Positions 28,801 through 62,751 of a stretch of DNA of 64,000 nt are shown here, piece by piece. The stretch is from Antedon mediterranea (Eukaryota; Animalia; Echinodermata). The notes beneath the pieces are model-generated. The model worked only from the letters and a program-made list of their open reading frames with translations, did no database searches and was not told where the DNA came from. The first letter of the stretch is position 1; every line of letters begins with the position of its first letter. The DNA lies in NCBI RefSeq assembly GCF_964355755.1, contig NC_092678.1:4170422-4234421 (forward strand). Reading direction: 5' to 3'. Position numbers and translations under genes: made by a program.

Positions 28801-31800
28801 TCTTATATGTTCTAGTGCAGTATATGGAGAGCCATCTCGATAGTGCTTTGCACTCATGGCAATCCTCAGGGTGCTGCACCGCTGTGTTGTCATGTATGTT
28901 TGCCTGAAAATTAAATAAAATAAAATAAAAAAAATTTGTTCCATCTGTTTGGATGCTGCCGTTTCTGCTCGTATTTTGGATATTGCTGTGTCTAATGTTA
29001 GATTTTCTGTACGCAGTAGGCGTTGTTTAAGGCTTGGCTTATTGATTCCTATTACGATCCTATCAAGAATGAGGCTATCTTTCAAGGTACCAAACTCGCA
29101 TGTCTCTGCTAGGCTTTTCAGCGAGGTAACAAAGGAATCAAATTTCTCACCTTCTTTTTGAATCCTGCAGTTAAAAATATATCGTTCATACGTGATATTG
29201 CGCTTCCCATCACAGAATTTCTTGAACTGTGCTAAGACTGGGCCGATCTTTGTTGTGTCCGTTTCGGCGTCCCACGTAAACGTGTTGTATGTTTCCAGGG
29301 CACGCTGTCCGATTACCGACAGGAGTGTGGCGACTCGTGTTGCCTCGGGCTTCGCGTTGACGCCTGTCGCTGTTTCGAAATTATCAAATCTTTGCGCAAA
29401 TCGACGCCAGCTTTCAGCCATGTTGCCTGAATCCATATCTAGAGGCATTGGTGCGGGTATCGTGAACGTCGCCATCGTCGTCGCCAATGTAATATTGAGT
29501 AATATGAATGAAATATAAGACACGATTCGATGATGGTTACTACTTCTTTTGCTTTATTACTAACAACTAACTATGGTGTGCCAAACGCGACACAACTAAC
29601 TATGGTGTGCCAAACACGACACTACAATCTTGATTATACTTCAGGTATAGTATACTAATCATCAATTTTTGTCCATATTTTCTTTGATCTTCAAACAGGT
29701 ATTTTTACTTTCAAACAGCAGACATGTAATTCAAACCTCAGCAGATTTAACAGTTTTTTACACGGTAACACAGACTTGATTTAAACTCCTAAAGCCTGAA
29801 TAACTAGGACGCAACGTAAGAACGTATGCGAAACATAAGCAAATCAATGACAATTGATACCTTACGATTGGTCAAATAATTGCATCACATTTACATAGTA
29901 TGACCACACCACCTCTAACTGCAGCAATACCAAGATGTAAAATGTTAACAATAGATTAATTTCAACATACCAACTCTGCAAGCTTTGTCTGCAGGATATA
30001 TATCTTATTATCTTTCTCTTTCATCAGTTTACTATTGACACCTGCAAGTCTGTCAGATGATTCCATTACTTCCGTGTCGCCAATCGTATAAAATGTAGCC
30101 ACAGTGTCATCAACATCATAGTTACTCTGACGTAAAGCAGCAATTATATCATACTTATCCTGCCAAGTTGGCACTGACTCCTACATATAAACAAAGAACC
30201 ACTGATAAAATGTTTCTACAATTCTGTCTTATTGTGATGACACCATCATTTTAAAACATTTTGCATCAAAGCACTCAGAATCTTTAGCCAGGCTTTTAGA
30301 TACAATACCATAACTCTTCTTACCTTTATCTGTAACAGAAGAGGTTTGATAAAATCTGTATGCTGTTCCCATGATACAGGCATCTTAATCCATGCCCCAG
30401 TCGCATCATCAAAGTAGCAATGAATGTTGCGCCTCTCCTACAGTTACAACAAAAAAGATCAAAAGAGATCAGCAATAGTTTACAATCTGTTGTGGACTGC
30501 ATTGAGATTTCTGCGTCTCATTGGCACGTTAGTAAACAGACCGTATAAAATAAGCCTGATTAAGACAAGGTCCCAAATCGCTGGTTGATTAATTGTTGCT
30601 GATTTACTACTTTTAAAAGGTCATGCCAAAGAATATAATTTAAATGCCACATCATATTTTTATTGTTTAAACTATTAAACTAACCCCTCCCTCCAATTTT
30701 ACATAGGCAACTAGTAGGAAAAGTATGATTAAACATCTAAACTAGGCCACTGCTAACGATGCACCTCCAAGGCTACAGTCTGTATGTTTAAACAAAAATA
30801 TGAATGGGAACCTCAAATATGTAAGTTAAGACACGTCCCCTTGTTGGGTGTTGCATGGTACCAGCTCTATCATCCACACCGGATTCAACAGTTCTAGATG
30901 AAACCTCAATATCACTCAATGGTTGGTTATGTGAAGAAAAAGGTTTGGATTGTTGAGCAAGTGGGTCAGCAGCCAGACTGCTATCTTTGATTGGTTGTCC
31001 ATCTCGTTCAAAGTGACCCTGAGAATACCAGAAGTTTGGAATTGGCTGCCATTCCTATAACACAATTTAAAACATTTAAAGTTCAAAACTTTGAAATTTA
31101 TTTAATATCTGAGCTTCTGGTAAATTTAAGATTTAAAATACAATTCACCGCTTTTTTACTTTTTCAGGAAAGTGTTCCCTTAACAGGGGTGTTCCCTGGA
31201 TAGTAGTGTCCAAATGGAGGTGTACTGTATGTTCCCGCTACATACTGTACTATAAAAATAAAAATTACCCTTTAATTTAATTAACCACATGCTTTTCTGC
31301 CGGAATAGTCTTATTTTATCAAATAGGTCAATATTTGTATACATGTTATGATTGTTGGAAAGAGTATTTGAGATAGCAAATTATTGGTTAATCTTTGACC
31401 TCACAGTATAAACAAATCAATAACCTGAGTGTCAAACGAGTCCATGTAGAACCGATAACCACCTTGGTTGATGCAAGTGTAAGTTCTACCATTTTGGTGA
31501 TAAAATGTCTCAAATGAAATGACATCATCATCCTGAAATAAAAACAATGAAATTAATTAAAATCAACAATATAATAAATTGTTTACACCTATTTATAGCT
31601 GCAATCAAAGATAAGTTTGTATCTATTCTATAAAGTTCTGTCCTGTTTTTTATCCTTCATTACTGTTTAATACTGTATTACAGACAGTAGAAAACCCTTT
31701 TTGGTAAACCGTTAGGGGACACTTGGAACATACGAGAACAGTTTATGTTTTAATGGCCAACCCTATTCTAATTCAGAAGACACCACATTAAGTGGAAATA

Positions 31801-32489
31801 GCCTCCCTGGAAATTGTTGGATCAGTCTTCTACTGTGCTAATTAACATTTGGTATAATAATAATGATTTCTTGTATATGTACAAACCTCCATGTTCTGGA
31901 TTTCCTTGGCAAGACTGTTATTTGTTCTATAAACTGTTTTATTTACAAATTGGGGCCGAAAAGCATTCACAACTCTGTGTTGCTGTTGAGTAGATTTACC
32001 AGCTCGTTGCCATGGGTTATCATAACTGTGTTGTAATGTCTGGAGACCACTGTAAAAATTATCATCAACTGCATCATTTATTGGTGGACCACTAGACTGA
32101 CGGTCACTAAATTCTGGAAGTGTTGCTCCTTGGTACTGAGTCATCTGTGAGTTTTCATTATTAGATTTCTGACCACTTTGATCCTCAGCTTCAAGAGCTA
32201 GACTTCCACAAGCTTTTGACAAACTTTCCAGCTGGTGAGTTTTTTTTACATGATCACCTGATCTCTTAAGCATTGATAACTGTTCAGGGTCATTTTCTTT
32301 TGGTCCATTTTGCTTGGATCTAAAAACAACAGATTGTCCAATGCTTGTAGTACTTTGTCGGTCTTCAACATTTGAAATTTGTATTTCTTGAAATTGTTGG
32401 TGCCTACAAGGTTTGGAATGTTGTCGCCTTGTTGGTTCGGGTTGCATTACATCAATTACATTTGATTTTCTTGAAGAACCAGTTCCCAT
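1741..32489 (-). CDS. Kinesin-14 family (KIFC3/Ncd-like, C-terminal motor) gene, 15 coding exons, about 911 aa
   Basis: Manually spliced exons, all GT-AG and phase-compatible: 31887-32489, 31425-31532, 30812-31054, 30324-30437, 29971-30180, 24047-24118, 23091-23219, 17212-17335, 16688-16827, 12226-12399, 4743-4940, 3603-3811, 3049-3235, 2806-2901, 1741-1869 (2736 nt). Kinesin-14 neck [14 protein letters not shown]-loop GQTGAGKT, switch I SSRSH, switch II DLAGSER, and [14 protein letters not shown]. Confidence 0.92.
2806..2901 (-). CDS. Kinesin-14 exon 14
   Basis: [32 protein letters not shown]; ag/gt boundaries. Confidence 0.94.
3049..3235 (-). CDS. Kinesin-14 exon 13 (switch I/II)
   Basis: [10 protein letters not shown]...[37 protein letters not shown]. 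Confidence 0.95.
3603..3811 (-). CDS. Kinesin-14 exon 12
   Basis: [15 protein letters not shown]...[12 protein letters not shown]; its phase-2 donor joins exon 13 to give NSTSSRSH. Confidence 0.95.
3877..4308. mobile_element. MITE with about 30-bp TIRs (possibly hAT-derived)
   Basis: CAAGGCAATTTAACAACAGGACGCTGAGCTC ... GAGCTCAGCGTCCTGTTAGATTGCCTTG, flanked by a (G)GTATAAA direct repeat of 7-8 bp. Confidence 0.8.
4743..4940 (-). CDS. Kinesin-14 exon 11 (P-loop)
   Basis: [36 protein letters not shown]...; not in the ORF track, read manually. Confidence 0.95.
5503..5902 (-). repeat. 3' LTR of the Gmr1-like element
   Basis: TGTAGTG...TGACA, direct repeat of 11187-11586. Confidence 0.95.
5993..10639 (-). 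CDS. Gag-Pol polyprotein: gag (SCAN-like capsid, CCHC knuckle), aspartic protease, integrase, RT, RNase H
   Basis: [14 protein letters not shown]; LRDSGC; [36 protein letters not shown]; YIDD; [24 protein letters not shown]. Confidence 0.96.
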   Translation of the reverse strand: MTTLRSGKNIDKTMSDKDTREDMVDQEEVDQVNEIYDNMARDIDLPEIPGGMPKDMMLEYFRMKFEAEAENKKLELQYQQDQLRLEADIEQKKMDIEQRKIESQERVKMMELENRSSYSNARNIVDEMKVKVPTLKESDDIDIYFRTFEHLAEATGWDKNTWSARLAPELSGKARTAYASLTVKECVDYDTLKKAILEKYDVSAETYRFKFRNSNRVKDMSIREWLNELSHYLKCWMKCANVKEDDAAGIIEMIIMEQALNKMPEDLRLYLRDKQVNKSYDMAMIADDYIANRGGRGYWNAVNSENKPTYYKGQENSKPKNGTTQNNPGARQQGYNRYRGRGGKFHNYGRNFQQREPSNEWINGLCFNCKEKGHKIGDCPKMVAKGKTSDTKKGPNVKDGLRCEGLKSDRPQVVMDSVENKMEKCIIPGKLEGQDITMLRDSGCTQSAVKESLVPNKCYLPGKWVTLRGIGGDITVPLAEVAIESKIVTGKVIVAVIEGLQRDMLLGHDLDQNCGETMAKEMFVLTREQARIENDVRIQDEMILLGKDSNFKPIEEPPKETNVQLLKTVVNDNKVNKTKCLDDMNGTEMNNLFDENEDKAKDKTVKRKTYEQQHKLNLTKQELIKLQTNDDSLKGVFDRVVPIEEIGQHRVCFFMRQGILMRNWSSIKDKNNQVEQIVLPTQCRQGVLHLGHNVPFAGHMGVEKTKSRVLNQFYWPGIFKDVVVYCKVCKECQKVDNGKSKRKHTLIPLPIISTPFKRIAIDIVGPLSRTSRNNKYMLTIIDYATRYPDAIPLPNVRAETVARALIEVFTRVGLPEEIVHDQGTNFMSSIMQSMCSMLGINQLKTTVYHPQSNGLVERFHGTLKNMIRTLTVKQRKNWDNYIPPFLFAYREVPSKATGHSPFKLLYGREVRGPLSLLKSNWVEDEETSTDVIKYMLDIREKMEELMKDANVNKLEQQEIMSHNYNKNAIDREFVEGDKVLIFLPVGNSKLDSKWQGPFTVTKKVNDVNYEIYIGGRRKEKQILHVNMLKRWYDKVEISKDGYYVVTNVQSIEEVDLNETVHENELDSHEIDIGLSYHQSQTWRDVNVSSNLNDTQTKQLTELLKYQQNVFSDVPGRTHLVTHEIKTNGEMPIRHRAYRTPQALKGKLKEELDSMLAMGIIEPTVSAYAAPIIALKKGQNQIRMVTDFRSLNKTTQFDPYVMPRIDEMLDEVSSAIYITTLDLTKGFYQVPLDPKTKDKSAFITQFGQYCYNVLPFGMQNSSSTFQRLMDKVLQGTEGYAKAYIDDICIYSQTWKDHIFHLNNVLERLSSAGLTAKPLKCKIAYAQVEFLGHKIGNGEIRPMIDKVEAVEKFPRPLSKKQVRSFLGLTGYYRKFVQNYADIAKPLIDLTLKSKSNTVKWNEQCENAFVTLKKRLTDDNVLKAPNFDKMFILQTDASNYGIGAVLSQIDGEGNDYPIVYLSRKLSVHEQRYSVPEKECLSIVWAINKLKYYLYGCEFQVHTDHQALRWTDSMKGANVRLMRWALFLQGYKFKVIYKKGSLNGNADGLSRA
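11187..11586 (-). repeat. 5' LTR of the Gmr1-like element
   Basis: Direct repeat of 5503-5902; followed on the minus strand by the PBS. Confidence 0.95.
11587..11862. mobile_element. Short TIR element (MITE) whose left TIR was split by the LTR element
   Basis: Right TIR ATGATACACCTCTTCCGGGGCTTGTATAGTGGGTCATACAAT pairs with 5488-5502 plus 11592-11618. Confidence 0.7.
12226..12399 (-). CDS. Kinesin-14 exon 10 (neck and motor start)
   Basis: [18 protein letters not shown]...[15 protein letters not shown]. Confidence 0.94.
12560..12835 (+). mobile_element. LINE ORF1 remnant (5' part of the CR1-like element that resumes at about 15640)
   Basis: Broken frames read [23 protein letters not shown], typical of LINE ORF1. 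Confidence 0.5.
12840..15630 (-). mobile_element. Degenerate Gypsy (Mag/K02A2.6-like) LTR retrotransposon internal region
   Basis: Gag [17 protein letters not shown] and [22 protein letters not shown]; [13 protein letters not shown]; RNase [30 protein letters not shown]; many frameshifts; LTRs not identified. Confidence 0.85.
15640..16510 (+). mobile_element. CR1-like LINE ORF2 (RT) remnant
   Basis: [17 protein letters not shown]; [40 protein letters not shown]. Confidence 0.85.
16688..16827 (-). CDS. Kinesin-14 exon 9 (neck coiled coil)
   Basis: [14 protein letters not shown]...[22 protein letters not shown]|gtgag. Confidence 0.9.
17212..17335 (-). CDS. Kinesin-14 exon 8 (coiled coil)
   Basis: [41 protein letters not shown]; phase 1 matches exon 9. 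Confidence 0.85.
17466..18373. repeat. 38-bp tandem repeat, about 24 copies
   Basis: Unit CATGGCTAGTTTAAGGTAACACTACATTGATGTAAAAA. Confidence 0.96.
18860..21660 (+). mobile_element. Degenerate RTE-like LINE (APE endonuclease plus RT), interrupted by a CR1 fragment
   Basis: [23 protein letters not shown]; [10 protein letters not shown]; [11 protein letters not shown]; [15 protein letters not shown]; DFKYLGS; [10 protein letters not shown]. Confidence 0.82.
19826..20726 (+). mobile_element. 5'-truncated CR1-like LINE nested in the RTE element
   Basis: [30 protein letters not shown]...[13 protein letters not shown]; 3' tail TCAAGTAAATCAAGTAAAGTAA; short ACCTT direct repeat at both junctions. 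Confidence 0.85.
21675..22060 (+). mobile_element. LINE ORF2 fragment
   Basis: [10 protein letters not shown]; [25 protein letters not shown]. Confidence 0.65.
23091..23219 (-). CDS. Kinesin-14 exon 7 (coiled coil)
   Basis: [43 protein letters not shown]|gtaagt. Confidence 0.85.
24047..24118 (-). CDS. Kinesin-14 exon 6
   Basis: ttttag|[24 protein letters not shown]|gtatga, phase 0/0. Confidence 0.8.
24250..24723 (+). repeat. Solo-LTR-like repeat related to 40835-41080
   Basis: TG..CA bounded; shares CGAGTGTGAAGATGTTTAC(C/T)GTAGTTTGAA..GGATTTC(G/A)TAGATTTA with 40992-41055; no clear TSD. Confidence 0.5.
24853..29626 (-). mobile_element. Gypsy (Mag-like) LTR retrotransposon with short identical LTRs and disrupted ORFs
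   Basis: 139-bp LTRs at 24853-24991 and 29488-29626, identical by eye; TSD ATCTT; PBS TGGCGACGAC (tRNA-Ser-like); PPT AAAAGATGGAGGGA; gag, protease IDTGA, RT ISDD, RNase [10 protein letters not shown], integrase TDNGPPFNS; frameshifts. Confidence 0.93.
28633..28934 (+). mobile_element. tRNA-derived SINE inserted in gag of the Mag-like element
   Basis: A box TGGCTTGGTGG, B box GGTTCAAGTCC, A-rich tail; 13-bp TSD TTTGTTTCATTTG / TTTGTTCCATCTG; a second 3' fragment at 39755-39903. Confidence 0.88.
29971..30180 (-). CDS. Kinesin-14 exon 5 (UBA/CUE-like helices)
   Basis: [30 protein letters not shown]...KLAEL|gtatg. Confidence 0.85.
30324..30437 (-). CDS. Kinesin-14 exon 4
   Basis: [38 protein letters not shown]|gtaaga. 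Confidence 0.82.
30812..31054 (-). CDS. Kinesin-14 exon 3
   Basis: [13 protein letters not shown]...[13 protein letters not shown]; open frame, phase 0/0, donor GAG|gttccc is weak. Confidence 0.75.
31425..31532 (-). CDS. Kinesin-14 exon 2
   Basis: tttcag|[36 protein letters not shown]|gttatt. Confidence 0.8.
31887..32489 (-). CDS. Kinesin-14 first coding exon (MGTGSS, disordered Q/S-rich)
   Basis: 201 codons from ATG to the GAG|gtttgt donor; phase 0 joins exon 2. Confidence 0.8.
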
Positions 32490-37833: not shown

Positions 37834-37996
37834 TCAAATTATATGGTTATAGCTGCTACTGCAGAAATTGGAAGGTTTTCTCTTTCCGTCACATGTTTAA
37901 GTAATGTTTTTCGTTATTGGTTACGCTCAATTAAAATAGATCATAATCGTTAAGAAGAGCTGAACAAAATTAATTATGTTGGTTATATTATATTAA

Positions 37997-38597
37997 AGCC
38001 CCATTCCCTACGTTTTTTAGATATAATTTAAGATCACAAACTATATTTAATGTAAAAATAATACTATATGGTCCTATTGCGATAACTTTTTTCGTCTTTA
38101 AACGGTTAAAAATGTGAAAAATAAATCGATTCTAATAATTATAGCGGCCCGCTATAAATCCCAAAATGCATTGCGCGCGGATTGATATTTTTGTTTTTCA
38201 CCTGTAATTCGTCCACTTTTCGATCGATCGTGAAACCAAAACAAATGGAAGACTCCTAACTAAATACCGGGTTTTCCCCAATTTGTATCACGGAGTCTGG
38301 CAAAAATAGAAAGACAATTAATGCAGCAACTATGCAACGTCAGGCTAGGTATATAGCTAGCATACGATGTTCGTACGTTATCGATGTTTACCAGCTAGGC
38401 CTACAAAACTAAGCCTAGCTAGGCTAGGCCTAAGACCGTCCACGAGAAGTCAATCGCCGCGAGCTACTTAGGTAGTGCATTGTTTCTCACTTTTTATCAT
38501 AATTTACCATAAAACGTACATTTAAGACAAGGAATGTTTTTAAAGTGATATATATATTATTTTCCAAAAAACGTCCAAAATTGCAGGGAAGGGGTCT
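37997..38597. mobile_element. Kolobok-like non-autonomous DNA transposon (TTAA TSD)
   Basis: TTAA|AGCCCCATTCCCTAC ... GCAGGGAAGGGGTCT|TTAA; near-identical copy at 51173-51798. Confidence 0.8.
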
Positions 38598-39179
38598 TTA
38601 AGCAAATTTTCTGTTCAATTGGGTTTGGTTTTCACAGGTCCATGATTCTGCTTCTTTTATTTCCGAGCTATTCCTTCATTATTAAATTGGGTACAGGTTG
38701 TTTTTTATTTACATGTTCCAAATATATCCGCCAGATATGCAAAATCCACCAAGAATTAGGAATCTTGTGGCTGCAGCTGCTATTCCAGTTGTCATCAGTG
38801 ATGATGCACCAGAGGTGCCTGCTGCACTCCACCAGAGGTCCCTGTGGGAGAGGTTAAGCACCAGTTCTATAAGAACATCACCAGCACCACCTCCACGACC
38901 AGTACCCACAAATCACCAAATCCAGTGTTTTATCCACTTGTCGATTATCCGGATTTCGTTCATTGTTTGTCCACACAAACTTCCTAGAAGAAGGGCCACT
39001 AGATAGAAACAATCTAATAAGAAGGGTGAACCTGAGGCTGCTAATCAGACTATCGTCGATGAACGACCGGTAGGATGCAACTAGCATCGAGACTGCAGCA
39101 AGAAATGTATGAGATCTGGTGCAGCCAACCTCTGCAGGTGCAGTTGAAAATGTAAACAAAACTGCTTACAAATAGAAGT

Positions 39180-40800
39180 CAAAATTTACAAATACAGATA
39201 AGGAGTCGAAAGAAAGAATAACCATTTGCCAGAAAATGTTATTTTAAGCAAAAATTGTGCAAAGCTTGATCATTTCCAACGAGAAGGCATTATTGAGCCT
39301 ATACAGTTTTCAGACTGGGCTGCACCAATAGTTCCGGTACTTAAGGCGGATAAAACTACAGTTAGGATCTGTGGTCAGTATACAAAGCCCATGAACGTGA
39401 AGCAGATGCAAGAGTACCAAGACCATGAAGGTGTCGTCGATTTCATCCTTTTGGCCGAAATCCAAGAGTTGTTCACCGCGATCCCTATCTCCACCACCAC
39501 CACCACAATTGCACTAAGTTTGATTAAATACATTAATTTACATTTAATTATTCATTGCACTTTGGTGTGGGACCTTCAAATACAAACAGGAAATGGCTGC
39601 CCAGGAGGCTCCGGTTGCTTCAGCAAGAAAACCAATATATATTATAAAGGTTTTTATTTATAAAGGTTTTATTTGTTTGGATATTTTTATTTATTATTTT
39701 GTTTCTATGGCTCCAGAAGGAAGCAACTGTCATCAGCCACGGAGTAAGCCCATAGACTTTGTTTATGCAGAGCATCTTGTGTATATGTTTGTCTTATATG
39801 TTCTAGTATCGATAGTGCTTGCACTCATGGCAATCCTCAGGGTGCTGCACCGCTGTATTGTTGTGCCTGAAAATTGAATAAAATAAAAAAAATAAAAAAT
39901 AAAGACTTGAAGCAGATGCAAATGCTACACCAAGAGTACCAAGACCATGAAGGTGTCGTCGATTTCATCCTTTTGGCCAAAATCCAAATATTGTTTACCG
40001 CTCCACGACCAGCAACTGCCCCACGGTTACCACCAGGCACCACCACATTTACCTCAAATCCGTCCACTTTTTTATTTGTTGCCTGTACCCGAACCTATTT
40101 TTTATCCTCTCATTGATTATCCTGATTATGTTCATCGTTTGCATGTTCTATATGGAATGAATTGGTACTTCCTAGAAGGATGGCACAGGCGTTTAGGGCC
40201 ACTCGATAGAAATAATCTACCTGCGGCTGCTAATCCGGCTATCGACTGGTAGGATGAAGATGGTTCAAATCATTGATTACGCACAATCTAGCCAAGCATC
40301 ATCTAGAATCCAATGTTGGGCACTGAAATTAGGTACATACAATTAACATTGCCAGGAAAACCAGAATCAATTCCACAACTTGCCAAACTATACTATTGAT
40401 GGAGTCAATGAATCAATCTCCAGTTCCACAGCAGGTTGGACGGTTAAAGATCCAATCTCGAGTTTTTACTACATTGAAATACTAATCCAAAAATCAAGAT
40501 GGATGTATTTTGTGAGGAAATAGAATTGCCAGGTAGAAAACAGTTACTACAATTAGCACTACATGAAGATCATACTGGAATTGTCAGGATGAAAAGTTTT
40601 GCTCGGGATTCGTTATGGTGGACAAAGACATCGAGGATAAATCAAAACACTGCAATACATGCCAATCTAATCAAACGTTACCACCAAAAGAACGCATGTA
40701 ATTGGGAAAAATGTTTTTACCACGCATAGTCAAAATGGCTTGAGGTAATTCTGGAAAATAAGACATTCTCTAACAGCCCCATATCACCAATCCTATTGAC
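39180..40800 (+). mobile_element. Fragmentary Gypsy (Mag-like) pol remnant interleaved with other sequence
   Basis: EGIIEPIQFSDWAAPIVPVLKADKTTVRICG (RT start); LHEDHTGIVRMKSFARDSLWW (integrase zinc finger). Confidence 0.7.
39755..39903 (+). mobile_element. 5'-truncated copy of the tRNA-SINE at 28633
   Basis: AGAGCATCTTGTGTATATGTTTGTCTTATATGTTCTAGT...GCAATCCTCAGGGTGCTGCACCGCTGT plus an A-rich tail. Confidence 0.85.
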
Positions 40801-40829
40801 GGGAGGTGAAGGGCGCCCCCTGTGGATTT

Positions 40830-43800
40830 GAGATGTTTTGTGCGGATGAGAAGAACGCACGAGAGAGGAGAGAGGAGAGATGAACACGACGAATAGAGTT
40901 AAATGGACATTTCCGAGTAATGATGTTTATATTACTTGTTAGTTAATAATTTGATGTTTAAGAGGTATAATATGACGTTGGAAATAGAATTCGAGTGTGA
41001 AGATGTTTACTGTAGTTTGAACTTACATGGATTGTAAAGGATTTCATAGATTTAGAGTAGATTACTATACGAAAAGTTTGTCACTATGACGTCACTATAC
41101 AGTTGTAAAAAGCACCCAAAACGTTCGCAGGCTACGACGTGAGCATCGAACCGTTTATGTACCACCACAAGAGGGCGTTGTTCATCGATACAGTGCGATG
41201 ACGTCACACCATGACTGGTAGCGGTAGATGGTACTGAAATTAGTTTTATCGATCATATTATTGTACCATACGATGACGTCATCACCAACACAAATGGCGC
41301 TGTTACAAATAATGTGGTTGGTAGCGGTAGTTGGTAATTTTAATCAATTAAGACATGACCATATGAATCACTCATGCGGAACAGAAGCTGAACCTTAAAT
41401 TGTTCAAAGAACACGGCATAACGCAATACCGTAAACAAACATTTGAAGAACTAACATATAGAATGACTGAATTAAGTGAATACGATACAGACATAACAGA
41501 TGTAAGTATAACTAATTATTTATTGTGTTTCTTCTTATATTAGAATTATGGCTAACCTGTTACCCGGCATTGGTCAACAAGTTCGTGCGGCTAGATGGGC
41601 CTTGTCATTGATAGCATGTACCGTAGAAGGGTGGGATAGATTAAGGCTACACGGAAATAGCATTCAAACAGCCTATAGAGCTGAAAATGGGGATCCGCAG
41701 GCTAGAAGAATCGTATGCCACCTAGGCTTCGTAGAAGGCCCAGACTACCCAGAATACATTCCGGAATTTGAACACATACACGGGTACATAGAGGAATTTA
41801 GGCGTATGACCCCAGACGGCCCTTATATACCCACATGGAATCGACGTAACAGAACACGTAACAACGTAAGAAACATCACAGCTCACATGGGGTTTGATGC
41901 GGAAGATTGCACTGTGCCTTACCTGGAACCAGTGCGTGATTTAGCCGCCTACATAATCTACATGAACAAAAATGCCAGAAACACTGCCAGACCAATACAA
42001 AACCCACCACAAGGGGGAAACCCGTTCCCTCCTGGTGCAAGAATTCCTTCTACTTCAATACCAGGTGCAGCATTAGACGCACCTGACCAAGCAAATGTTG
42101 AAGAAACTCACACTTAATTCTAATTTGTTTCCTGTACCCGAACCTGTTTTTTATCCTCTCGTTGATTATCCTGATTATGTTCATCGTTTGCATGTTCCAT
42201 ATGGATTTAATTGGTACTTCCTAGAAGGCACAGGCTTTAGGGCCACTCGATAAAGATAAATCTGCCAGTAAGGGAAGAGGTTTATGAAAGGTATGGCGAA
42301 CTTGTGGCTACTAATCCGGCTGTCATTAATCGACCGATTGGATGGCGGTGGGGTAACGAACTGGTTCAAATCATTGATTACGCACCGGTAGTCATTAGTG
42401 ATGATGATGAACCGGTGCAGATCATTGATGAAGAACCAGTTGATGATGATTAACCGGTAGTCAATATGGAGGATGAACCGGTTCTAATCACAGATGATGA
42501 TGATGAGGAGCCAGTCGTCATCAATGATGCCTGCCGCATCGGATGTGCCAGTCCACAGTCTCCGGCCATGGTGGCACCCCCGGCACTGGCAGCCACAGTT
42601 TACCAAAATAAATCCGGGAGAAAATGGGGTAACCTGGTTCAAATCATTGATTACGCACCGGTATTATGTGATTTAGCTTGATGGCATGATCTGCTATAGC
42701 TGATTTGCTCAGTTCATTTTTTGATTCACTATGTGATTGACGAGTCAAATATTGCGTAATTTATACCGCCACCTATCGACAAAATCGAATATCACGTGAC
42801 GTTTATTAGACTGATTTCTTCCATGAAGGCAATTGAATCCAGACTTGGTATTAATGTAGTTGTTCTTGACCTCGACACGGAACAACTAAATATGGTAAAG
42901 TAAAATACGAGACCACGATTAATAAGGCCATGTACATTTGAGTTAGTGTTATTCATTATTACGTTTTTCCTATCTGACTACATAAGTAAACCGCAAAGAC
43001 TCATGCGAAGCCCGTAACATGGTGGCAGCGGTGTTTTTAACTGTGCTGTGGTGGACCACATTTCTTTTAATGGATTGTTCCAAGTTAAAGCGTTTGAAAG
43101 TTATGCTAAAAGGGAAGAGTGGGAGTAATCCACTTGGGTTTGACGCATCTCCCAATGCATTGAAGGTAAGGCTCGCAACACTATGGATGCATATGCAATG
43201 AAAGCATACGAAGATTGGGCATAATGTTGACTGTTGGGCGAGATATTTTGGCATTGCATCTGATTAATGCGGCAAGTATTTCGCAATTAATTATACAGGT
43301 TTTAGAGAACATACTCAATGACATGCGCCAGCATACCTAATTATTGGCAACGCCATAAGCTAAATAATAAGCAAGTAGGCACAAAAAGTAATTAAGACCG
43401 CAGCCCTACAAGAGCAAACCACCAAGATTTGACAGACCGACTTACAACAGGCCAAGGTTTAACTCGCCTAATTATGCACCGAATCACAATGCATTTAACA
43501 GGCTGCCTATTAAAGCACATTCACAAAATCAGCCTCCTTTCAGACTAAACTTTAACGCTAGCAACCAGCAAGATCTGAATTCATTAAATAGGCCATTTAT
43601 TCCTCAACAAGCTCCCCGATTTGGCAACACACAAGGTCGGCAAAATCAAAATCAAAGAAAAAAAAAAATCGCACGATTCCTTAAAGTGCATCGCTGCAAG
43701 AAGGCCTTGGTAGTGCTGGTCTATTGGGCAATGATCTAGAAAATAAATGGGACAAACCAAAAGACATACTAGTAGTTACTAGAGCACTAACTTTGTGTAT

Positions 43801-44040
43801 TGCCCGAAATACAAGTGCAGGATTGTATTAGACAATATCTCAAACAAAATCAAATAGTTGTACCACAGGAGTACAGAGAACACATAATAAATATAGCGCA
43901 TGATAAAACTGGACACAGGATAGGATCAGCCAACATTTTTATTGGCCTGGAATATACCATCAAGTTAGATATCCTATTTAAAAGAATTATTATAGCAGGT
44001 CCATTTTCTGTTATAGAGGAATGGGAATAGATATTTGAGT
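40830..44040 (+). mobile_element. Second, decayed Gmr1-like LTR element: LTR ending at 43019, PBS, gag/PR/INT remnants
   Basis: ...CCCGTAACA|TGGTGGCAGCGGTG (same tRNA-Leu PBS, 43020-43033); LLGNDL..ILVVTRA followed directly by QIVVPQEYREHIINIAHD..GH..FYWPGI. The LTR start is approximate. Confidence 0.7.
41548..42117 (+). CDS. Putative HUH (rolling-circle Rep/NS1-like) endonuclease, no helicase domain
   Basis: Intact 189-aa ORF with correctly ordered motif-like segments: I RWALSL, II EHIHGYI, III VRDLAAYIIYMNK; Pro-rich tail. Confidence 0.6.
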   Translation: MANLLPGIGQQVRAARWALSLIACTVEGWDRLRLHGNSIQTAYRAENGDPQARRIVCHLGFVEGPDYPEYIPEFEHIHGYIEEFRRMTPDGPYIPTWNRRNRTRNNVRNITAHMGFDAEDCTVPYLEPVRDLAAYIIYMNKNARNTARPIQNPPQGGNPFPPGARIPSTSIPGAALDAPDQANVEETHT

Positions 44041-44059
44041 AAAAGTTTAAAAAAATGTC

Positions 44060-47000
44060 CACAAGAAGGTTGCAAAGGCTTCGCCTGTCTCTTATAAATC
44101 AGCTATAAAATCAGTTACAGTATAAAAAAATTAACTTAAAAAAATGTCCACAAGAAGGTTGCTGGAATCGTGATAATGATCCGTCTTGTAGTTTTGACGT
44201 ACGGCTTAAAATTAGATAATAAAAAGCCGCCGCTGCACGCAAAATTGCACCATTATTGCTTAACAAATCAAACACTAGAAACACTAATTATGAAGTAAAT
44301 TAGTATTATATTTAGACATTATAAGAAGTCCAAATACTCATAGGCCTACAATTATTTTATTCCACCTATAATTTAAAACATTTATAATTTATTTATACAT
44401 TTATTCACTTTACATGTGCACTGTCGAACCATACGCGCTCCTTAGTCACTTTCATTTTACAATCTGCAAGAAGTGGTTATGGTATTTTGGATTCATTTAT
44501 ATTTTGCTTGCGACGCACTGACTATTTCTGCGTTGTTGGGACTGTATTTTTTATAATTCATATACATTTGAAGTAGAGTACGTTTTTCTATGGTTCTTAG
44601 CACGAAACTCATTCAAAACGAGGTATTCTTTCCTGACATAGCGGGTAGCACCATTTACTGTGTAATGCAACTTCTATGAAGAGCAGAATTAATAAATAGC
44701 ATAAATAAACAAATAGAATAATGAGAGGGTTAGTTGTTTCAATCTCTATTTTGATTGGTCTTCAATCATACATGATATGCATAATGTTGCAGGTGATGTT
44801 ACGCTTCATTGATTTCCATGTCTATAAAACCACGTCGAATTAGCCCGCGCACCTCTTTCCTTATAAATCAGCTATAGGCTAAAATCATCATATAAAATTA
44901 AGTTAAACAATGTCCACAAGAAGGTTGCGAAGGCTTCGCCTGTGAGTAGCACCTTAGTTAGTAGGCTTTTCAGCTGTTTTAGTAACATGTAATTGTGTAG
45001 GCCTTTAATAACATGAGTAAATTTAATTCAGTAAGACTTCTTCTGGCCTTAGCTAGTTAGTAGGCTGTGACGGCGTGACGTGAGGCTCTTTTTTACTTAA
45101 GCTCTGGCGATACTCACATGGGACTATGATCAGGTCATGGAGGTATACCTCCATGGTCAGGTCGACCAATATCTACGGAACGGCAAAACCGCAATATGCG
45201 GTTACCGGCACAGTAATATGTAGGCTCATAATTAGTTATCCGCTTAGTAGCGGATAACTCCTTGTAATTGTCCTGTTGCTTTTTTTTTTTTTTTTGGTTA
45301 TCCGCAACTTTTGAAGTTGAGGATAACCCTTTTTTTTCATCTTCTTTATTAGTTATCCGCATTCAGCGGATAACTCCTTGTAATCGTCCTGTTACTTTTT
45401 TTTTTTTTTTGTTATCCGCACTTGGCGGATAACCCCTTGTTATTGTCAGGATCATACATGATATGCATAATGTTGCAGGTGATGTTACGCTTCATTGATT
45501 TCCATGTCTATAAAACCACGTCGAATTAGCCCGCGCACCTCTTTCCTTATAAATCATACTACATCAGTATATATCAGTTATAGGCTAAAAAAAAAAAATG
45601 TCCACAAGAAGGTTGCGAAGGCTTCGCCTGTGAGTAGCACCTTAGTTAGTAGGCTTTTCAGCTGTTTTAGTAACATGTAATTGTGTAGGCCTTTAATAAC
45701 ATGAGTAAATTTAATTCAGTAAGACTTCTTCTGGCCTTAGCTAGTTAGTAGGCTGTGACGGCGTGACGTGAGGCTCTTTTTTACTTAAGCTCTGGCGATA
45801 CTCACATGGGACTATGATCAGGTCGACCAATATCTATGGAACGGCAAAACCGCAATATGCGGTTACCGGCACAGTAATATGTAGGCTCATAATTAGTTAT
45901 CCGCTTAGTAGCGGATAACTCCTTGTGATTGTAGTGGATCAATATTTTTTTTTTTTTTTTCTGTATTATTCTTATTTCTTTCCCATTTTTTTGTGACTCG
46001 CATTTCTCTAAAATGTGTAAACATAACATTTCATAACTTTGACAACATGTGGGCATTTACGTGAAGTTGTGCACCTCCTTTTTTGAATGACGTCAGAGTT
46101 GCGCAACGTGACTTACGCACGATTTTATGATTTTTAATGATTGATCATAGCTTAAAAACCAAGCGTAATTTTTTTTTTACCCTTTATGAAAATTTAAGTC
46201 ATATCAAGAATGGCGTGTTTTACAAGAAGTTACGTGCGTACGCGCATTTAAAATTTTAAAATGCGCAAAATTAATTTCTAATCAACTTTTTACGCCATTC
46301 ATGACATTTTGCACCATTCATGACATTTTGCGCATGTCAAAATTTCCCGCGTGCGCGAACAATTTTACGCGTGCGGCGCGCACGCAGCATAAAATCTTGT
46401 TTTTTTCTATTAAATTGTGATTTTCCAGCCTTTCCTAGTCATTTTTAAAAAGATTGACATCATTTCAAATTAAAATGACGTCATACGTACACGTTGTTTT
46501 AGACCACTTGCGTGCGTTTTTATTGCAAAAGTTACAAAATATTGTCAAAATTATGCCTGTTTTGAAACTATTATAGCTCCTCAGGATCAACCGTAACCCC
46601 CGATTTTTTTAACTTAATATGTAAGCAGATATGTTGTAGATATGAATTCATGCAGAATTTTTTCCTCACGGATGTTGTGACGTCATCGTATGGCCACACG
46701 AATGTAAAAAATAGGATTTTTTTCTCTTTCGTTATTGCTCATCACATTCAATGGAGCCCATCACGCTTATCCGTTTTCCATTTTCACCCCGATTTTGATA
46801 TTGTCTAGGTCAATCAACTATCTTTCGCACGAGTTAAAAATATTTTAATTTTTATGATGTCATCATGCCTAAAAATTAAAATTACGTGTGGCATTAATTC
46901 CATCTTTACAGTAAATTTTAATCTGTTATAGCTCGTAAGAATAAAATGTGATATTTTGCTTGCGACGCACTGACTATTTCTGCGTTGTTGGGACTGTATT

Positions 47001-47645
47001 TTTTATAATTCATATACATTTGAAGTAGAGTACGTTTTTCGATGGTTCTTAGCACGAAACTCATTCAAAACGAGGTATTCCTTCCTGACATAGCGGGTAG
47101 CACCATTTACTGTGTAATGCAACTTCTATGAAGAGCAGAATTAATAAATAGCATAAATAAACAAATAGAATAATGAGGGTTGTTTCAATCTCTATTTTGA
47201 TTGGTCTTCAATCATACATGATATGCATAATGTTGCAGGTGATGTTACGCTTCATTGATTTCCATGTCTATAAAACCACGTCGAATTAGCCCGCGCACCT
47301 CTTTCCTTATAAATCATCGGTATAGGCTAAACAAATTAACAAGTTAAAGTTGAAAAAATGTCCACAAGAAGGTTGCGAAGGCTTCGCCTGTGAGTAGCAC
47401 CTTAGTTAGTAGGCTTTTCAGCTGTTTTAGTAACATGTAATTGTGTAGGCCTTTAATAACATGAGTAAATTTAATTCAGTAAGTAGTAAGTAGGCTGTGA
47501 CGGCGTGACGTGAGGCTCAAGCTTTTTGACTTAAGCTCTGGCGATACTCACATGGGAGTATGGTCAGGTCGACCAATATCTATGGAACGGCAAAACCGCA
47601 ATATGCGGTTACCAGCACAGTAATATGTAGGCTCATAATTATAAT
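44060..47645. repeat. Local triplication of a 0.45-0.75 kb segment interleaved with Helentron-like ends
   Basis: ATCATACATGATATGCATAATGTTGCAGG... block at about 44765, 45452 and 47211; 44498-44765 also recurs at 46950-47210. Confidence 0.9.
45230..46940. mobile_element. Non-autonomous element with TTATCCGC..GCGGATAA hairpin ends (Helentron/HINE-like); related copy at 49435-50780, fragment near 11980-12110
   Basis: Repeated hairpin GTTATCCGCTTAGTAGCGGATAAC plus T-tracts; internal sequence 46250-46940 resembles 49630-50300. Confidence 0.5.
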
Positions 47646-47899
47646 TTTCAATTTGACACACACACACATAATGAATCAATATTACACAAAAATTATATAG
47701 TCCGAGTTAAATGAAACTTCAAAATAAAGTTACATATCCTATAATAGATTGTCTACAAATACTAATAAATACTCATACGATATTTTGACAATCTTGATAT
47801 GTTCTTTATACACTAACGATAGGTACTTCGATCAATCAATGAACAGTTTGTATATTGATTGGTGTTTCATGAGTAGTTTTCCAGGCACATCAGAAAATA

Positions 47900-48909: not shown

Positions 48910-51900
48910 TTATTTCAGTATTTGTTTAGAGCTAAATGATTAGTGGTCACTTAATTTCTTTCGTACTAATAAAACTCTTTTTTTCATAGATAGAAACTGA
49001 CCTGACTTGCGTCGGTCTGAACTCAGTCGCGTAGGTCGAACAGACCTACTTTTAGAGGTTTTTGCACCCCCTAAGGCACTCCGGTACAACATCGAGGTCG
49101 CAAACTCTCTTTTCAATAAGAACTCTCAAAGAGAATAATGCTGCAGCCGTTTAACTTTTGTCTTTTTTCTAGGGGCGTACCCTTTGTTTGCCGAATTCCT
49201 TTCTCTTATTTGTTTTTTTTTAATTTTCAGTGTTGAATAAAACTATTAAAAACAATTTTTTTCTTGTTAGAAATATTTTATTTTCATTCAGTTGTTTATT
49301 TTTGTTAGAATAGTTTAATTTATTTTATTCTTTTAAATATTTAATTTTAACATTATTTTATAGTTAAAAACTATTATTCTGCTTTATTCTTCATTAATTA
49401 GGTGATCTAATACTTTAACTTAGTCCTAAAAAGCTTTTCAGCGCGATCACTCATCCGTGACGTCATTTATACGCCATTTTGTGAAATCGCATTATCAATC
49501 ATATCTCTATAATTCATTATCACATATTAATGAAATTCCCTACACGTAAACTTCAGGTCAAGGGTAAAAATATCAGTAAATAAAAACGCACGCGTACATA
49601 GGTTCATGTGCGTAAAATCGCGCGTTAAAAGTTTAAAATGTGAAAAATTAATTTCTAATCAATTTTCTACGCATTTCATGTCATTTTAAGCATGTCAAAA
49701 ATTCCCACGCGCGCGCACATTTTTTCGCGCGCGGCACGCATGTAGCGTTAAAAACATATTTTTTTCACTTGATTTATGTTTTTTCAGCCCTTTTCTCGTA
49801 ATTTTACCAACAATTTCGACTTTAAATCACGTCATGCGAGCACGTCGAATTTGAGAATTTGCGCGTGTTTTTGATGAAAAAGTTAAAAAATTTGTCAAAA
49901 TTATGCCTTTTTTTAAACAGTCATATTTTCTAAACTAAACGGTGAAAGTTATTTTTATTACATATTCTGGAAGATGATGAGTTGTAGATATCGGATTATG
50001 CATCAATATGGCTAACCGGACATTGTGACGTCATTGTATGGCCACTCGAATATAAAATATTGGATTTTTGTTTCTTTCGTCATAGCTTATCGCATTTAAT
50101 AGAGCGCATATCCACTTATGCGTTTTTCATTTTGCACCTGATTTTGATATTGTCTAGGTCAATCAATTATCTTTCGAATGATTTAACATTTTAAATTTTT
50201 TTATGACGTCATCATGTTCAAAAGGGTGAATTCCTTGGGTCATTTATTTTCATCATACAGTAAATTTCAATATGTTATAGCTCCTCAGAATAAGAAGAGA
50301 TAATCATGATTAAAACGTTTTCTGGAAGCTGTTGAATTGTAGATACGAATTCATGTAAAAATGTTGCGCTTCGGATGTTGTGACGTCATATGGCCAGTTG
50401 AATTATAAAAGTCGTATTTTCATATTTTGCGTCATAGTTCATGACATTTAAAAGAGCGCGCATCCATATTATGCGTATCCCAATTTCTTCAACACATTAA
50501 TAAGTTGTTGCTCAAATAATTTCCTTCCAAAATTGCTATCTACGTATTTCATTTTGATGACATCATTTTAAAATTTGGAATAAAGGAGGGTCCCGTTATT
50601 TTCACCTATTCTGCACTGTATTTAGTATGTATGCTACACTGTATATAGATATACAGTATATACTGTACATATTGTATATGACATATAATAGGCACAATTC
50701 AGCATTATAAGCGTATAATAGGATGGCATACATCAACATTTTCCGATCGTATGTTAACGTACGTGCATGTTTTAAAAAAAATTAAAGTGACGAATTAAAT
50801 TCTAGTTATTGTTTATATTTTTGCTTTAATACTTTCCTATTGATGGCTGCTTCTAGGCCTACTATTTTTTTTAAATTTTTTTTTTCTTTGATTTTAGCTA
50901 TATTTTAGGCTTTTTCCTTTAACTAAAAAGTTTATCGCTATCGTTATTGATAACAATTTTTTTATTAACAAATAAAAACGTGAGCTAATACTCATTTAAC
51001 AGAAAACCAGCTATAACCAAGCTCGTTTCATGTCTAATGAAACCTCTTTATTTACTTTTGCAACAGTAATATAATACAATCATTTTATTGGTGTATCATT
51101 AGATCTCTTGGTTTCGGGTTTTGAAAAGTTTTTCTTTCTTGTTGTTGAACCATAATACGGTAGGAGTTTTAAAGCCCCATTCCCTACGTTTTTTAGATCT
51201 AATTTAAGATCACAAACTATATTTAATGTAAAAATAATACTATATGGTCCTATTGCGATAACTTTTTTCGTCTTTAAACGGTTAAAAATGTGAAAAATAA
51301 ATCGATTTTAATAATTATAGCGGCCCGCTATAAATCCCAAAATGCATTGCGCGCGGATTGATATTTTTGTTTTTCACCTGTAATTCGCCCACTTTTCGAT
51401 CGATCGTGAAGCAAAAACAAATGGAAGACTCCTAACTTTTCAGCGAAAATACCGGGTGTTCCCCAATTTGTATCAACGGAGTCTGGCAAAAATAGAAAGA
51501 CAATTAATGCAGCAACTATACAACGTCAGGCTAGGTATATAGCTAGCGTACGATGTTCGTACGTTACCGATGTTTACCAGCTAGGCCTACAAAACTAAGC
51601 CTAGCTAGGCTAGGCCTGAGACCGTCCACGAGAGTTCGATCGCCGCGAGCTACTTAGGTAGTGCATTGTTTCTCACTTTTTATCATAATTTACCATAAAA
51701 CGTACATTTAAGACAAGGAATGACATGGTTTAATGTTTTTAAAGTGATATATATGTATTATTTTCCAAAAAACGTCCAAAATTGCAGGGAAGGGGTCTTT
51801 AATTTCTCTTTTTAATTTTTTTTTTCATTTTTTCAATTTTTCCTTGAAGTACTTTCTTTATTCCATTGAAATTTCTAATAATTATGCTTTCTTTATTTAA

Positions 51901-52290: not shown

Positions 52291-52594
52291 TTTTTTTTTT
52301 TTTTTTTTTTTTTAAACAAAAGAAAATAAAAAACTAAAATTAATATCCTTGGACAAAATAAAAGAAACTGAAAGTAAATGTCAAATGCACAAATAAAACT
52401 AAATTTCTTAAAATGAAAATGTAAGTGAACATAAGAAAAAAACTAAAAGCAGTCATAATAAAATCATCTTCTTCATTTCATCTTCTGCATTTCATCAGCC
52501 AGGAGTATACAGCCTCAGTTGCAAAAACTTCACCATCGGAGATGTCGCTATATGATTTCATCCTTTTGGTCGAAATCCACCCAGAATAAATAAC

Positions 52595-60484: not shown

Positions 60485-60738
60485 TTTGGTGTGTACTGCA
60501 TGATGATTAGTGTGTACTGCATGATGATTAGTGTGTACTGCATGACGATTGGTGTGTACTGCATGACGATTGGTGTGTACTGCATGACCATTGGTGTGTA
60601 CTGCATGACCATTGGTGTGTACTGCATGACCATTGGTGTGTACTGCATGACCATTGGTGTGTACTGCATGACCATTGGTGTGTACTGCATGACCATTGCC
60701 GGGTGTGTACTGCATGACCATTGGTGTGTACTGCATGA
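60485..60738. repeat. 21-bp tandem repeat, about 12 copies
   Basis: Unit TGGTGTGTACTGCATGACCAT. Confidence 0.93.
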
Positions 60739-61530: not shown

Positions 61531-62751
61531 GGACCAAGAACTAATCCAGTTGCTAAGCCTCGAAGAGACAATTTTTTCCACATTTAGTTTATTTTGGTCC
61601 TAAAAGAGGAATAGTAACGGGTATTTAATGGCTCTGCTTCTTTCACTTCATGAAATATTTTAAAATCTTGAAACGGAAATTGATAAACTATATCAAAAAC
61701 AAAACCGAATTGCTGTAGTGTTACGATGATGTTCAAATTCGATCAAAAGTATGCCGAACAAGGTGAAAAAAAACACTAACATTTTTCTTAGGGCTAGAAA
61801 AGCGTAAGACATACAGTAAAATCAATCATAGCCTTATTGATAAACAAGGAAACAAAATTATACTGTTGTAGATAGGATAATTGAAGAACAAGTATTTCAT
61901 TATAAGGATCTTTATAAATGTGTTTGAAATGAGAATTTTAACAATGATTATGATAAAGTTATTGAAAACTTAGTATTCCCATGCTACATCGCACACGCCA
62001 ATATTGATTATAAAGCTTTTATTTGTTTGCATATTTTAGTGTTTATTATTCTGTTTCTATTTTTTTTAGGCTTCAGGAAGAAGCTGAGCATTTCATCAGC
62101 CAAGGAGTGTAGGCCCCTGAAATGGACAAGTTTTTATATAAGATTTATGTTACTAAAATATTGCTCGTTTAATGATGAATCTTCAATTCCAGAGTAAGAA
62201 TTAAAAATAGGATTTAGCATGGGGTATCACTAAAGATGGTGAAATTTCCCTTTTATTTATTCATGATACTGTAAGATTTTTAGTCGGTCGGTCTGTCTGT
62301 CGGTCCGGTATCACTATGCATTGTAGCACGCGACTTAATGGCTGTTGGCCTTGTTACTATAAAGAAACATGTATAAATGCCACAATGTGTATCAAAATTG
62401 CTGATTAGTCTACTAGGCCTCTTTAAGATTAATTATTATAATGCAACAAAATAATCAAATATTTCATTCTTGTACAATACAAGGTTTAAAAGTAAACATA
62501 CTGTATATATGCAGAGACAAATAATGGCACAATTGGTGCTCATATGGATAGATGAAGCATTTAGTTTGAAAGCAGAAGAAGTCTATCTGTATATATATTT
62601 ATGAAAGCCTAGACTACGACAATTAAAAGCGGCAATTCTTTGTAAAACTAAAAGTCCTTTATTGTAAATAGCATTCATGTATAATTTAAATGTTCGACGA
62701 TAACTCTATACTGTAATAATTTTTTATAATTTTAAAAGTATTTTAACATTA

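What the first reader, a model, noticed from the sequence alone, without database searches (positions are those of the whole stretch)
41081..42733. Virus-like cassette encoding a helicase-less HUH (Rep/NS1-like) endonuclease, sitting in an LTR
Seen: an intact 189-aa ORF (41548-42117) in otherwise decayed sequence. It has RWALSL ... LGFVEG ... EHIHGYI ... VRDLAAYIIYMNK, the order and spacing of rolling-circle motifs I, II (HUH) and III (YxxK), and no Walker A/SF3 helicase follows. LTR-like sequence stops at about 41080 and appears to resume near 42800, ending at the PBS at 43020. TCACTATG occurs at 41081 and 42726. Known: CRESS-DNA virus Reps and parvoviral NS1 carry this nuclease, usually fused to an SF3 helicase; replitrons are helicase-less HUH transposons with short terminal direct repeats. 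Inference: this is an endogenised ssDNA-virus segment or an animal replitron-like element. It is the best candidate here for an undescribed system.
Basis: partly seen in the sequence, partly recalled or inferred. Interest (0 to 1): 0.8.

Follow-up and report, generated by a model that had tools for sequence, protein, structure and literature searches.

The report
Helicase-less rolling-circle nuclease gene, animal
An animal genome holds a real protein-coding gene, conserved by selection and with no database relatives, whose product is predicted to be a DNA-nicking rolling-circle enzyme without the usual helicase; it likely belongs to a small undescribed mobile element lodged among retrotransposon debris, but its fold, ends and mobility are untested.

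Summary
The 189-codon ORF (41548-42117) is real. A gap-free, 90%-identical copy in a second organism differs mostly at silent sites (11 of 13 listed changes synonymous, about a quarter expected). It has no relative in the protein collections searched. No Walker A follows. The 'inside one LTR, bounded by TCACTATG' reading is unsupported: the left repeat is cut at 41081 but is not seen to resume, and the 8-mer repeat is chance-level (p about 0.12). Best reading: a decayed copy of a low-copy, nuclease-only rolling-circle element (0.4); a viral fragment is next (0.25). It is not a Replitron by the tests made. The scan found no look-alike DNA earlier; helicase-less HUH-like genes were noted in other animal genomes, relationship untested.

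The parts
41548..42117 (+). 189-aa ORF, predicted Y1 HUH (Rep-like) nuclease domain (about residues 15-143) followed by a Pro/Gly-rich tail; possibly only the 5' part of a longer gene
41590..41613 (+). motif I candidate (ARWALSLI), weak on its own (2.0 bits)
41770..41793 (+). motif II candidate (EHIHGYIE; His76, His78), carries most of the signal (13.9 bits); Glu63 upstream is a candidate third metal ligand (inferred)
41944..41970 (+). motif III candidate (AAYIIYMNK; Tyr138, Lys141); the change at the Tyr138 codon in organism B is synonymous
41082..41340 (+). upstream non-coding module: three TGACGTCA palindromes (41087, 41199, 41274; CRE-type by recalled consensus), a CTCF-like site (41165; recalled consensus, only match on the window's + strand), a 17-nt direct repeat (41216, 41319); cores 41139-41185 and 41306-41338 recur in other contigs of organisms A and B with different neighbours
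41367..41543 (+). 58-codon open frame without a start codon, ending in splice-acceptor-like sequence (branch-like 41510, pyrimidine tract, AG at 41542-41543) four bases before the ATG; a 95%-identical stretch (41391-41593) exists in organism B; coding status not shown
42077..42253 (+). downstream coding block X (PEPVFYPLVDYPD...), in another frame, open across the ORF's stop codon; no family match
42241..42681 (+). continuation of module X: acidic repeats with five hydrophobic-then-acidic motifs resembling SUMO-interacting motifs (label from recalled knowledge); broken in this copy by a frame change near 42230-42253 and a stop at 42451-42453
40065..40284 (+). second, internally deleted copy of module X, preceded by a different Pro-rich open frame and followed by Gypsy pol debris
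38915..39077 (+). third, more diverged copy of module X, preceded by a SIM-like motif and a Pro-rich stretch, followed by a reverse-transcriptase-like fragment (identified by eye)
40807..41081 (+). multicopy repeat, LTR-like (purine tract 40801-40806, then TG, after an integrase fragment), cut at 41081; second copy near 24256-24450
42743..42811 (.). short piece of an unrelated high-copy repeat just downstream of module X
   Evidence: depth bin and loose ends
43018..44030 (+). LTR end (CA), PBS-like 12-mer (43020-43031) and a deleted Gypsy gag-to-integrase relic

Best explanation
This is likely a decayed copy of a small, low-copy mobile DNA element whose gene is predicted to encode a single-tyrosine HUH nuclease that would nick and rejoin single-stranded DNA using host helicases or replication forks instead of its own helicase. 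Shown: the gene is coding and was conserved by selection, it has no helicase motif nearby, and related pieces sit at other loci in two organisms. Inferred: His76, His78 and Glu63 bind the metal, Tyr138 forms the covalent DNA link; the upstream module is the promoter and perhaps the binding site; the downstream module X, with SUMO-binding-like repeats, is an accessory protein or the C-terminal half of the same protein and would recruit or counter host SUMO-dependent silencing. This copy landed in, or was recombined into, a nest of Gypsy fragments, cutting an LTR-like repeat at 41081.
For: Coding and selected: organism-B contig covers 41663-42094 with 45 differences and no gap; 11 of the 13 listed ORF differences are synonymous against 24-28% expected, p 7e-6 to 4e-5, and this holds in the Pro-rich tail (codons 148-166), so the tail, not a helicase, followed the nuclease in the working gene. 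HUH: matrices from CRESS-like loci alone place motifs I, II, III in order, 19.2 bits, 0 of 5000 shuffles, best of 49 open frames of the window. Independent lineages: organism B matches the neighbouring gag relic and flank at 97.5-99% (three pieces) but its ORF copy at 90%, nearly all silent, so that copy is likely a paralogue far older than the split of the hosts. Several loci: the upstream cores occur in further contigs with other neighbours in A and B, and module X has several versions in both. The ORF lies on one 1101-base contig at the lower of the two single-locus depth levels in runs X1 and X2, which fits one copy on one chromosome set (depth is only a rough guide).
Against: No termini, target-site signature or empty site were shown; the proposed 8-bp repeat is chance-level and five stretches at the putative ends fold no better than shuffles (z 0.6 to -1.2). 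The full CRESS profile gives -0.9 bits, reached by 101 of 2000 shuffles, and hhalign 5%; natural Reps score 62-85 bits on the motif chain against 19 here, and motif spacing is 59 and 62 residues against medians of 39 and 38. Both low-confidence models put motif II in a helix. Only 13 of the ORF differences were displayed (of 21 in X6 and 45 in X7); rows for the His76/His78 region were not shown. All three pieces of module X are followed on the same strand by Gypsy sequence, which a self-mobile element does not predict. Between the two closest X copies only 1 of 6 changed codons is synonymous.
Confidence: 0.4

Rival explanations
1. A fragment of an unknown single-stranded DNA virus (or its satellite) that was endogenised several times. 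The ORF would be a nuclease-only product like mastrevirus RepA (recalled), with the helicase on a lost exon or gene; module X would be a viral early protein. Joining to Gypsy pieces would come from template switching during reverse transcription.
For: Old silent divergence between copies at unrelated loci is what repeated endogenisation gives. CRE-rich upstream module and a splice-acceptor-like site just before the ATG recall densovirus NS promoters (recalled). Same-strand Gypsy neighbours for all three X pieces. Precedent: cressvirus fragments joined to retrotransposon-like sequence in sea anemones (10.1101/2024.03.25.586562, passages); densovirus EVEs in sea stars (PMC7737747, passages).
Against: No Walker A in 41548-44500, whereas essentially all sea-star densovirus EVEs kept the helicase motifs (PMC7737747; those were found by homology, so this is partly a search bias). 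No capsid-like frame was recognised. No nonanucleotide TAGTATTAC near the element and no stable hairpin. Selection continues through the Pro-rich tail.
Confidence: 0.25
2. A HUH-fold passenger gene that does not move itself: cargo of a Gypsy or Polinton element, or a small host gene family, in which the domain binds DNA and the SUMO-binding-like repeats recruit silencing factors.
For: Consistent same-strand adjacency to Gypsy debris; position between a purine tract/TG start and a CA/PBS end. Earlier scan notes describe non-mobile HUH-fold domains in other animals (untested leads).
Against: Typical copies of the left repeat continue differently after 41081, and the Gypsy families left and right have different depth profiles in A and B, so the gene is not a standard part of either. 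The candidate catalytic Tyr and Lys are present, and the change at the Tyr codon in B is silent.
Confidence: 0.2
3. The protein is not HUH at all: it is a HEPN ribonuclease (RNITAH at residues 108-113 as the R-x4-H motif) or another orphan, and the HUH motifs are coincidence.
For: The ESM Atlas feature search ranks HEPN clusters highest among named ones (0.84-0.87). No profile or structure search gave HUH support.
Against: Those scores are below 0.9 with 94-123 of 256 shared features, which the tool classes as a lead only. RNxxAH arises in 407 of 100,000 shuffles and R[NHD]xxxH in 1627 of 20,000, much more often than the HUH chain (0 of 5000). Both models contain three beta strands, whereas HEPN is all-helical (recalled).
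Confidence: 0.15

Closest known systems
Replitrons (Craig 2023, PMC10288648; read: abstract, introduction, first results sections, section 8, passages on termini)
   Same: Eukaryotic, single catalytic Tyr in YxxK, no helicase, low copy number, small size, candidate Glu upstream of motif II.
   Different: Replitrons have motif I SUTU, mostly HUQ, GYxxK, a conserved ~90-aa helical second domain, short terminal direct repeats, and were reported from green plants and algae, stramenopiles, cryptophytes and haptophytes. Here: ALSL, HIH, IYMNK, a Pro-rich tail and an acidic module, no shown termini, animal host.
CRESS-DNA virus Rep (Viral_Rep PF02407, Gemini_AL1 PF00799)
   Same: Order and character of motifs I, II, III.
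   Different: No SF3 helicase, no capsid, no nonanucleotide hairpin; motif spacing about 20 residues wider in both intervals; profile match not significant.
Parvoviral and densoviral NS1/Rep nuclease, and densovirus EVEs of sea stars (PMC7737747, passages)
   Same: True HUH pair; His-to-Tyr distance of about 60 residues is like AAV Rep (recalled); CRE-rich promoter and acceptor just before the start (recalled for densoviruses).
   Different: No helicase, capsid or terminal hairpins; no Pfam match.
Helitrons (RepHel)
   Same: Animal HUH transposons.
   Different: Helitrons have two catalytic Tyr and a fused SF1B helicase (PMC10288648); neither is present.

Membership tests
HUH Rep superfamily (Y1) | Motifs I, II (HUH), III (YxxK) in order | tested here: met
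   untuned matrices, 0 of 5000 shuffles; patterns written after seeing the ORF, 0 of 100,000
HUH Rep superfamily (Y1) | Detectable profile similarity to a known Rep family | tested here: inconclusive
   own profile of 100 circo-like Reps: -0.9 bits, 101 of 2000 shuffles; that set is narrow, chosen by one motif
HUH Rep superfamily (Y1) | Five-stranded sheet with His pair and Tyr together | tested here: inconclusive
   single-sequence models, mean pLDDT 41 and 47
HUH Rep superfamily (Y1) | Conservation of the catalytic residues among homologues | tested here: inconclusive
   Tyr138 codon change is silent and no change is listed at Lys141 in one homologue; His rows not displayed
HUH Rep superfamily (Y1) | Metal-dependent ssDNA nicking with a phosphotyrosine adduct | not testable with these tools
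   needs an assay
Replitrons | Motif signatures SUTU, HUQ (general), GYxxK | tested here: not met
   ALSL, HIH, IYMNK against PMC10288648
Replitrons | Conserved ~90-aa four-helix domain right after the Rep domain | tested here: not met
   a Pro/Gly-rich stretch of about 45 residues follows, under selection
Replitrons | No helicase | tested here: met
Replitrons | Short direct repeats at shared termini of several copies | tested here: inconclusive
   TCACTATG pair is chance-level; no second full copy to align
Replitrons | Sequence similarity to Replitron transposases | not tested
CRESS-DNA viruses / parvoviruses | SF3 helicase fused to the nuclease | tested here: not met
   no Walker A in six frames of 41548-44500; a lost exon cannot be excluded
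CRESS-DNA viruses / parvoviruses | Capsid gene and origin hairpin | tested here: inconclusive
   none recognised but the locus is decayed
Helitrons | Y2 motif and SF1B helicase | tested here: not met
HEPN ribonucleases | R-x4-H motif | tested here: met
   RNITAH at 108-113, but common by chance
HEPN ribonucleases | Family-level similarity and all-helical fold | tested here: inconclusive
   Atlas scores under 0.9; low-confidence models with strands
Gypsy LTR (as host of the cassette) | Left and right flanks are the two halves of one LTR | tested here: inconclusive
   left repeat cut at 41081; its known continuation does not align to 42700-43030; a longer LTR with an internal replacement is not excluded

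The most novel reading that the evidence does not exclude
A new group of animal DNA transposons, independent of Helitrons and Replitrons, whose transposase is a single-tyrosine HUH nuclease with no helicase and which carries a tail of SUMO-binding repeats to engage or disarm the host's SUMO-dependent transposon silencing.
Probability: 0.25. Interest if true: 0.85.

Novelty: new variant of a known kind. Interest (0 to 1): 0.55.

Why it matters
In the Replitron paper (PMC10288648) the HUH transposons of eukaryotes are Helitrons and Replitrons, and Replitrons were not reported from animals. A selected, helicase-less HUH gene in an animal, unlike anything in the protein collections searched, would be either a further independent HUH transposon group or the trace of an unknown ssDNA virus lineage of marine invertebrates. 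The nuclease domain is small (about 130 residues) and directly assayable, and small HUH domains are used as protein-DNA tags. The pairing with SUMO-binding-like repeats offers a testable link between a mobile element and host silencing. The value is limited for now because fold, ends and movement are unproven.

Tried and rejected
Homologue searches: none at E 0.01 among proteins of 103-331 residues or 332-2000 residues; 2 hits among 1.84 billion representatives, both internal-repeat proteins and rejected; no Pfam, PHROGs, NCBIfam or PADLOC family for the ORF; no PDB sequence; nothing meaningful in plasmids (6 records, E 1-4) or phages (1 record, E 8); nothing in viral contigs. The 8 metagenome and 7 genome loci are all one bacterial gene, GlnD, sharing a 9-residue word by chance. 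Module X: no homologue or family. Structure searches with the low-confidence models listed no HUH protein; this excludes nothing. No Rfam match in 38500-44500, no tRNA in the window. Sequencing runs: no RNA holder listed. Holes in cover, which prove nothing: run X5 over the ORF, organism B over 41594-41662 and no near-identical ORF copy in B, run X10 entirely. TCACTATG as terminal repeat and resumption of the left LTR were rejected. A 42-base intron at 41502-41543 was considered; the branch-like site lies only 8 bases after the donor, so only the acceptor is kept as a lead. A weak match between the ORF's motif III region and 38866-38918 was not pursued. Troyka retrotransposons (PMC12440569, part 1 of 5 read) are unrelated. 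Literature searches listed no description of a helicase-less HUH element in an animal genome; the library lacks most subscription papers and Repbase.

Full report
Setting. The window is repeat-rich animal-type DNA (GC about 0.35) with an intact Gypsy element at 5993-10639 and much retrotransposon debris. No whole genome is held. An earlier, unreviewed scan note calls the genome a feather star; I did not test this.

The ORF is real. The ATG frame 41548-42117 encodes 189 residues; a frame this long arose in 1 of 2000 shuffles of the surrounding 6 kb. Public runs of three coded organisms hold parts of the region. In organism B one contig covers 41663-42094 with 45 differences and no gap (run X7) and another covers 41874-42094 with 21 differences (run X6); both runs come from one study. 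The table showed 13 differences inside the ORF, chosen by the tool for support, not for type; 11 are synonymous where 24-28% would be expected (p 7e-6 to 4e-5). They include the Tyr138 codon and five silent changes in the Pro-rich tail (codons 148-166). Rows for the histidine region were among 29 not shown.

What the protein is. No homologue or family was found (details under Tried and rejected). To test the HUH reading I fetched 133 viral loci by a motif II pattern, kept 106 nuclease domains and 100 after removing near-duplicates. A full profile of these does not recognise the ORF (-0.9 bits; 101 of 2000 shuffles as good; hhalign 5%). Most of the score is motif II (13.9), and the Reps themselves score 62-85. 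The spacing (59 and 62 residues) is wider than in the set (medians 39 and 38). The only lysine of the protein lies in YxxK. Single-sequence folding gave mean pLDDT 41 and 47 with motif II in a helix and is not informative. The ESM Atlas leans weakly to HEPN (0.84-0.87), and RNITAH fits the HEPN motif, but such a motif is far more common in shuffles. I put HUH at about 0.8. No Walker A lies in any frame of 41548-44500.

A second coding module (X) starts in another frame that is open from 42077 across the ORF's stop. Its first block occurs three times in the window (38916, 40076, 42125). Against the most diverged copy, 7 of 10 and 5 of 10 changed codons are synonymous in the PEPVFYPL frame; between the two closest copies only 1 of 6 is. 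It continues into acidic repeats with five hydrophobic-acidic motifs that look like SUMO-interacting motifs (label recalled). This copy of X is broken by a frame change near 42230-42253 and a stop at 42451-42453. In all three places block X follows a Pro-rich stretch, and the organism-B contig leaves the window's sequence at 42094, before the ORF's stop. The 189 codons may therefore be the front of a longer gene that is broken near 42095-42117 in this copy; this is left open. Upstream, 41082-41340 holds three TGACGTCA palindromes of the window's ten, a CTCF-like site and a 17-base direct repeat, and its cores recur in further contigs of A and B with different neighbours. An acceptor-like site ends four bases before the ATG.

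Boundaries and copy state. The left repeat (about 40807-41081, after an integrase fragment and a purine tract) is truly cut at 41081, but its known continuation does not align to 42700-43030, and a piece of a different high-copy repeat lies at 42743-42811. The PBS-like 12-mer and gag relic are at 43020 onward. Depth profiles differ on the two sides: in X1 the left repeat is about 14 times and the gag about 21 times the depth of the ORF contig while 42850 is about 2.6 times; in X6 the integrase fragment is about 200 times and the gag about 2 times single-locus depth (depth is a rough guide only). So the flanks likely come from different families, and 'inside one LTR' is not supported, though a long LTR with an internal replacement is not excluded. 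TCACTATG occurs six times in the window and a match of this kind has p about 0.12. No stable hairpin was found in five stretches at the putative ends. The ORF lies on one contig (41052-42152, no differences) at depth 146 in X1 and 30 in X2, the lower of two levels seen for unique contigs (146-159 and 238-266 in X1), which fits one copy on one chromosome set. Organism B matches the gag relic and right flank at 97.5-99% but the ORF at 90%, so its ORF copy is likely a paralogue from a lineage that diverged, under selection, long before the hosts.

Mechanism. The most likely reading (0.4) is a low-copy element that moves by single-strand nicking and joining with a Y1 HUH enzyme, relying on host unwinding as proposed for IS200/IS605 and Replitrons (PMC10288648, passages), with module X as an accessory or C-terminal part that engages SUMO. 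Shown: coding, selection, absence of a helicase motif, related pieces at other loci. Inferred: fold, catalysis, mobility, SUMO binding. Rivals: repeated endogenisation of an unknown ssDNA virus (0.25), for which anemone cressvirus-retrotransposon chimeras (10.1101/2024.03.25.586562, passages) and sea-star densovirus EVEs (PMC7737747, passages) are precedents, although the latter keep the helicase; a non-mobile passenger or host gene (0.2); a non-HUH protein (0.15).

Comparison and novelty. It works like a Replitron if the best reading holds, but it fails the Replitron motif signatures and second domain, and Replitrons were reported only outside animals (PMC10288648: parts 1-2 of 7, section 8 and passages read; its supplementary protein sets were not opened and could bear on relatedness). 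It lacks the helicase of CRESS, parvoviral and Helitron enzymes. Ten literature searches listed no description of such an element in animals; PMC11296320 (passages) and PMC12440569 (part 1 of 5) were not relevant. The scan's own notes hold no look-alike sequence, but list other helicase-less HUH-like genes in other animal genomes, whose relation to this one I could not test. Verdict: a real orphan gene, probably a new variant of HUH element, with unproven fold and ends; interest 0.55.

Noticed in passing
window 38686-44030: A 5-kb same-strand mosaic of short, internally deleted Gypsy pieces (RT-like 39240-39390, integrase zinc finger 40478-40729, gag to integrase 43055-44030) alternating with module X pieces; resembles template-switch chimeras or a piRNA-cluster-like nest.
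   Followed up: partly
window 39409-39479 and 39931-40001: A 71-base piece present twice (93% alike); organism-B contigs join it to parts of module X (joints 39062-39441 and 39469-42354), so it may be an internal part of that gene. 26 bases of it also match 52554-52579.
   Followed up: partly
window 5503-11486 (minus strand): Intact Gypsy element: LTR copies 100% identical over 300 bases, single 1548-aa ORF with SCAN-like gag and the integrase placed before RT-RNase H (Pfam), a Gmr1-like domain order (label recalled); likely very recent.
   Followed up: no
window 24853-29626 (minus strand): Second Gypsy element with identical 139-base LTRs and an apparent 5-base target duplication, but with frameshifted gag-pol.
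   Followed up: no
window 37993-38601 and 51169-51802: Two 94%-identical copies of a ~620-base non-coding repeat containing a short palindromic cluster near 38395-38415; possibly a non-autonomous DNA transposon.
   Followed up: no
window 44047-47700: Cluster of partial direct repeats with short palindromes (GTTATCCGC...GCGGATAAC) repeated at 45226-45433 and 45895-45928; could be nested rolling-circle-type non-autonomous elements.
   Followed up: no
window 1-1436, 17314-18525, 60435-60728, 62657-63078: Tandem arrays with units of 71, 38, 21 and 25 bases, the first two about 99% homogeneous.
   Followed up: no
window 31842-32489 (minus strand): 215-codon ORF starting with a myristoylation-like MGTGSS, no Pfam match; possibly an exon of a host gene.
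   Followed up: partly
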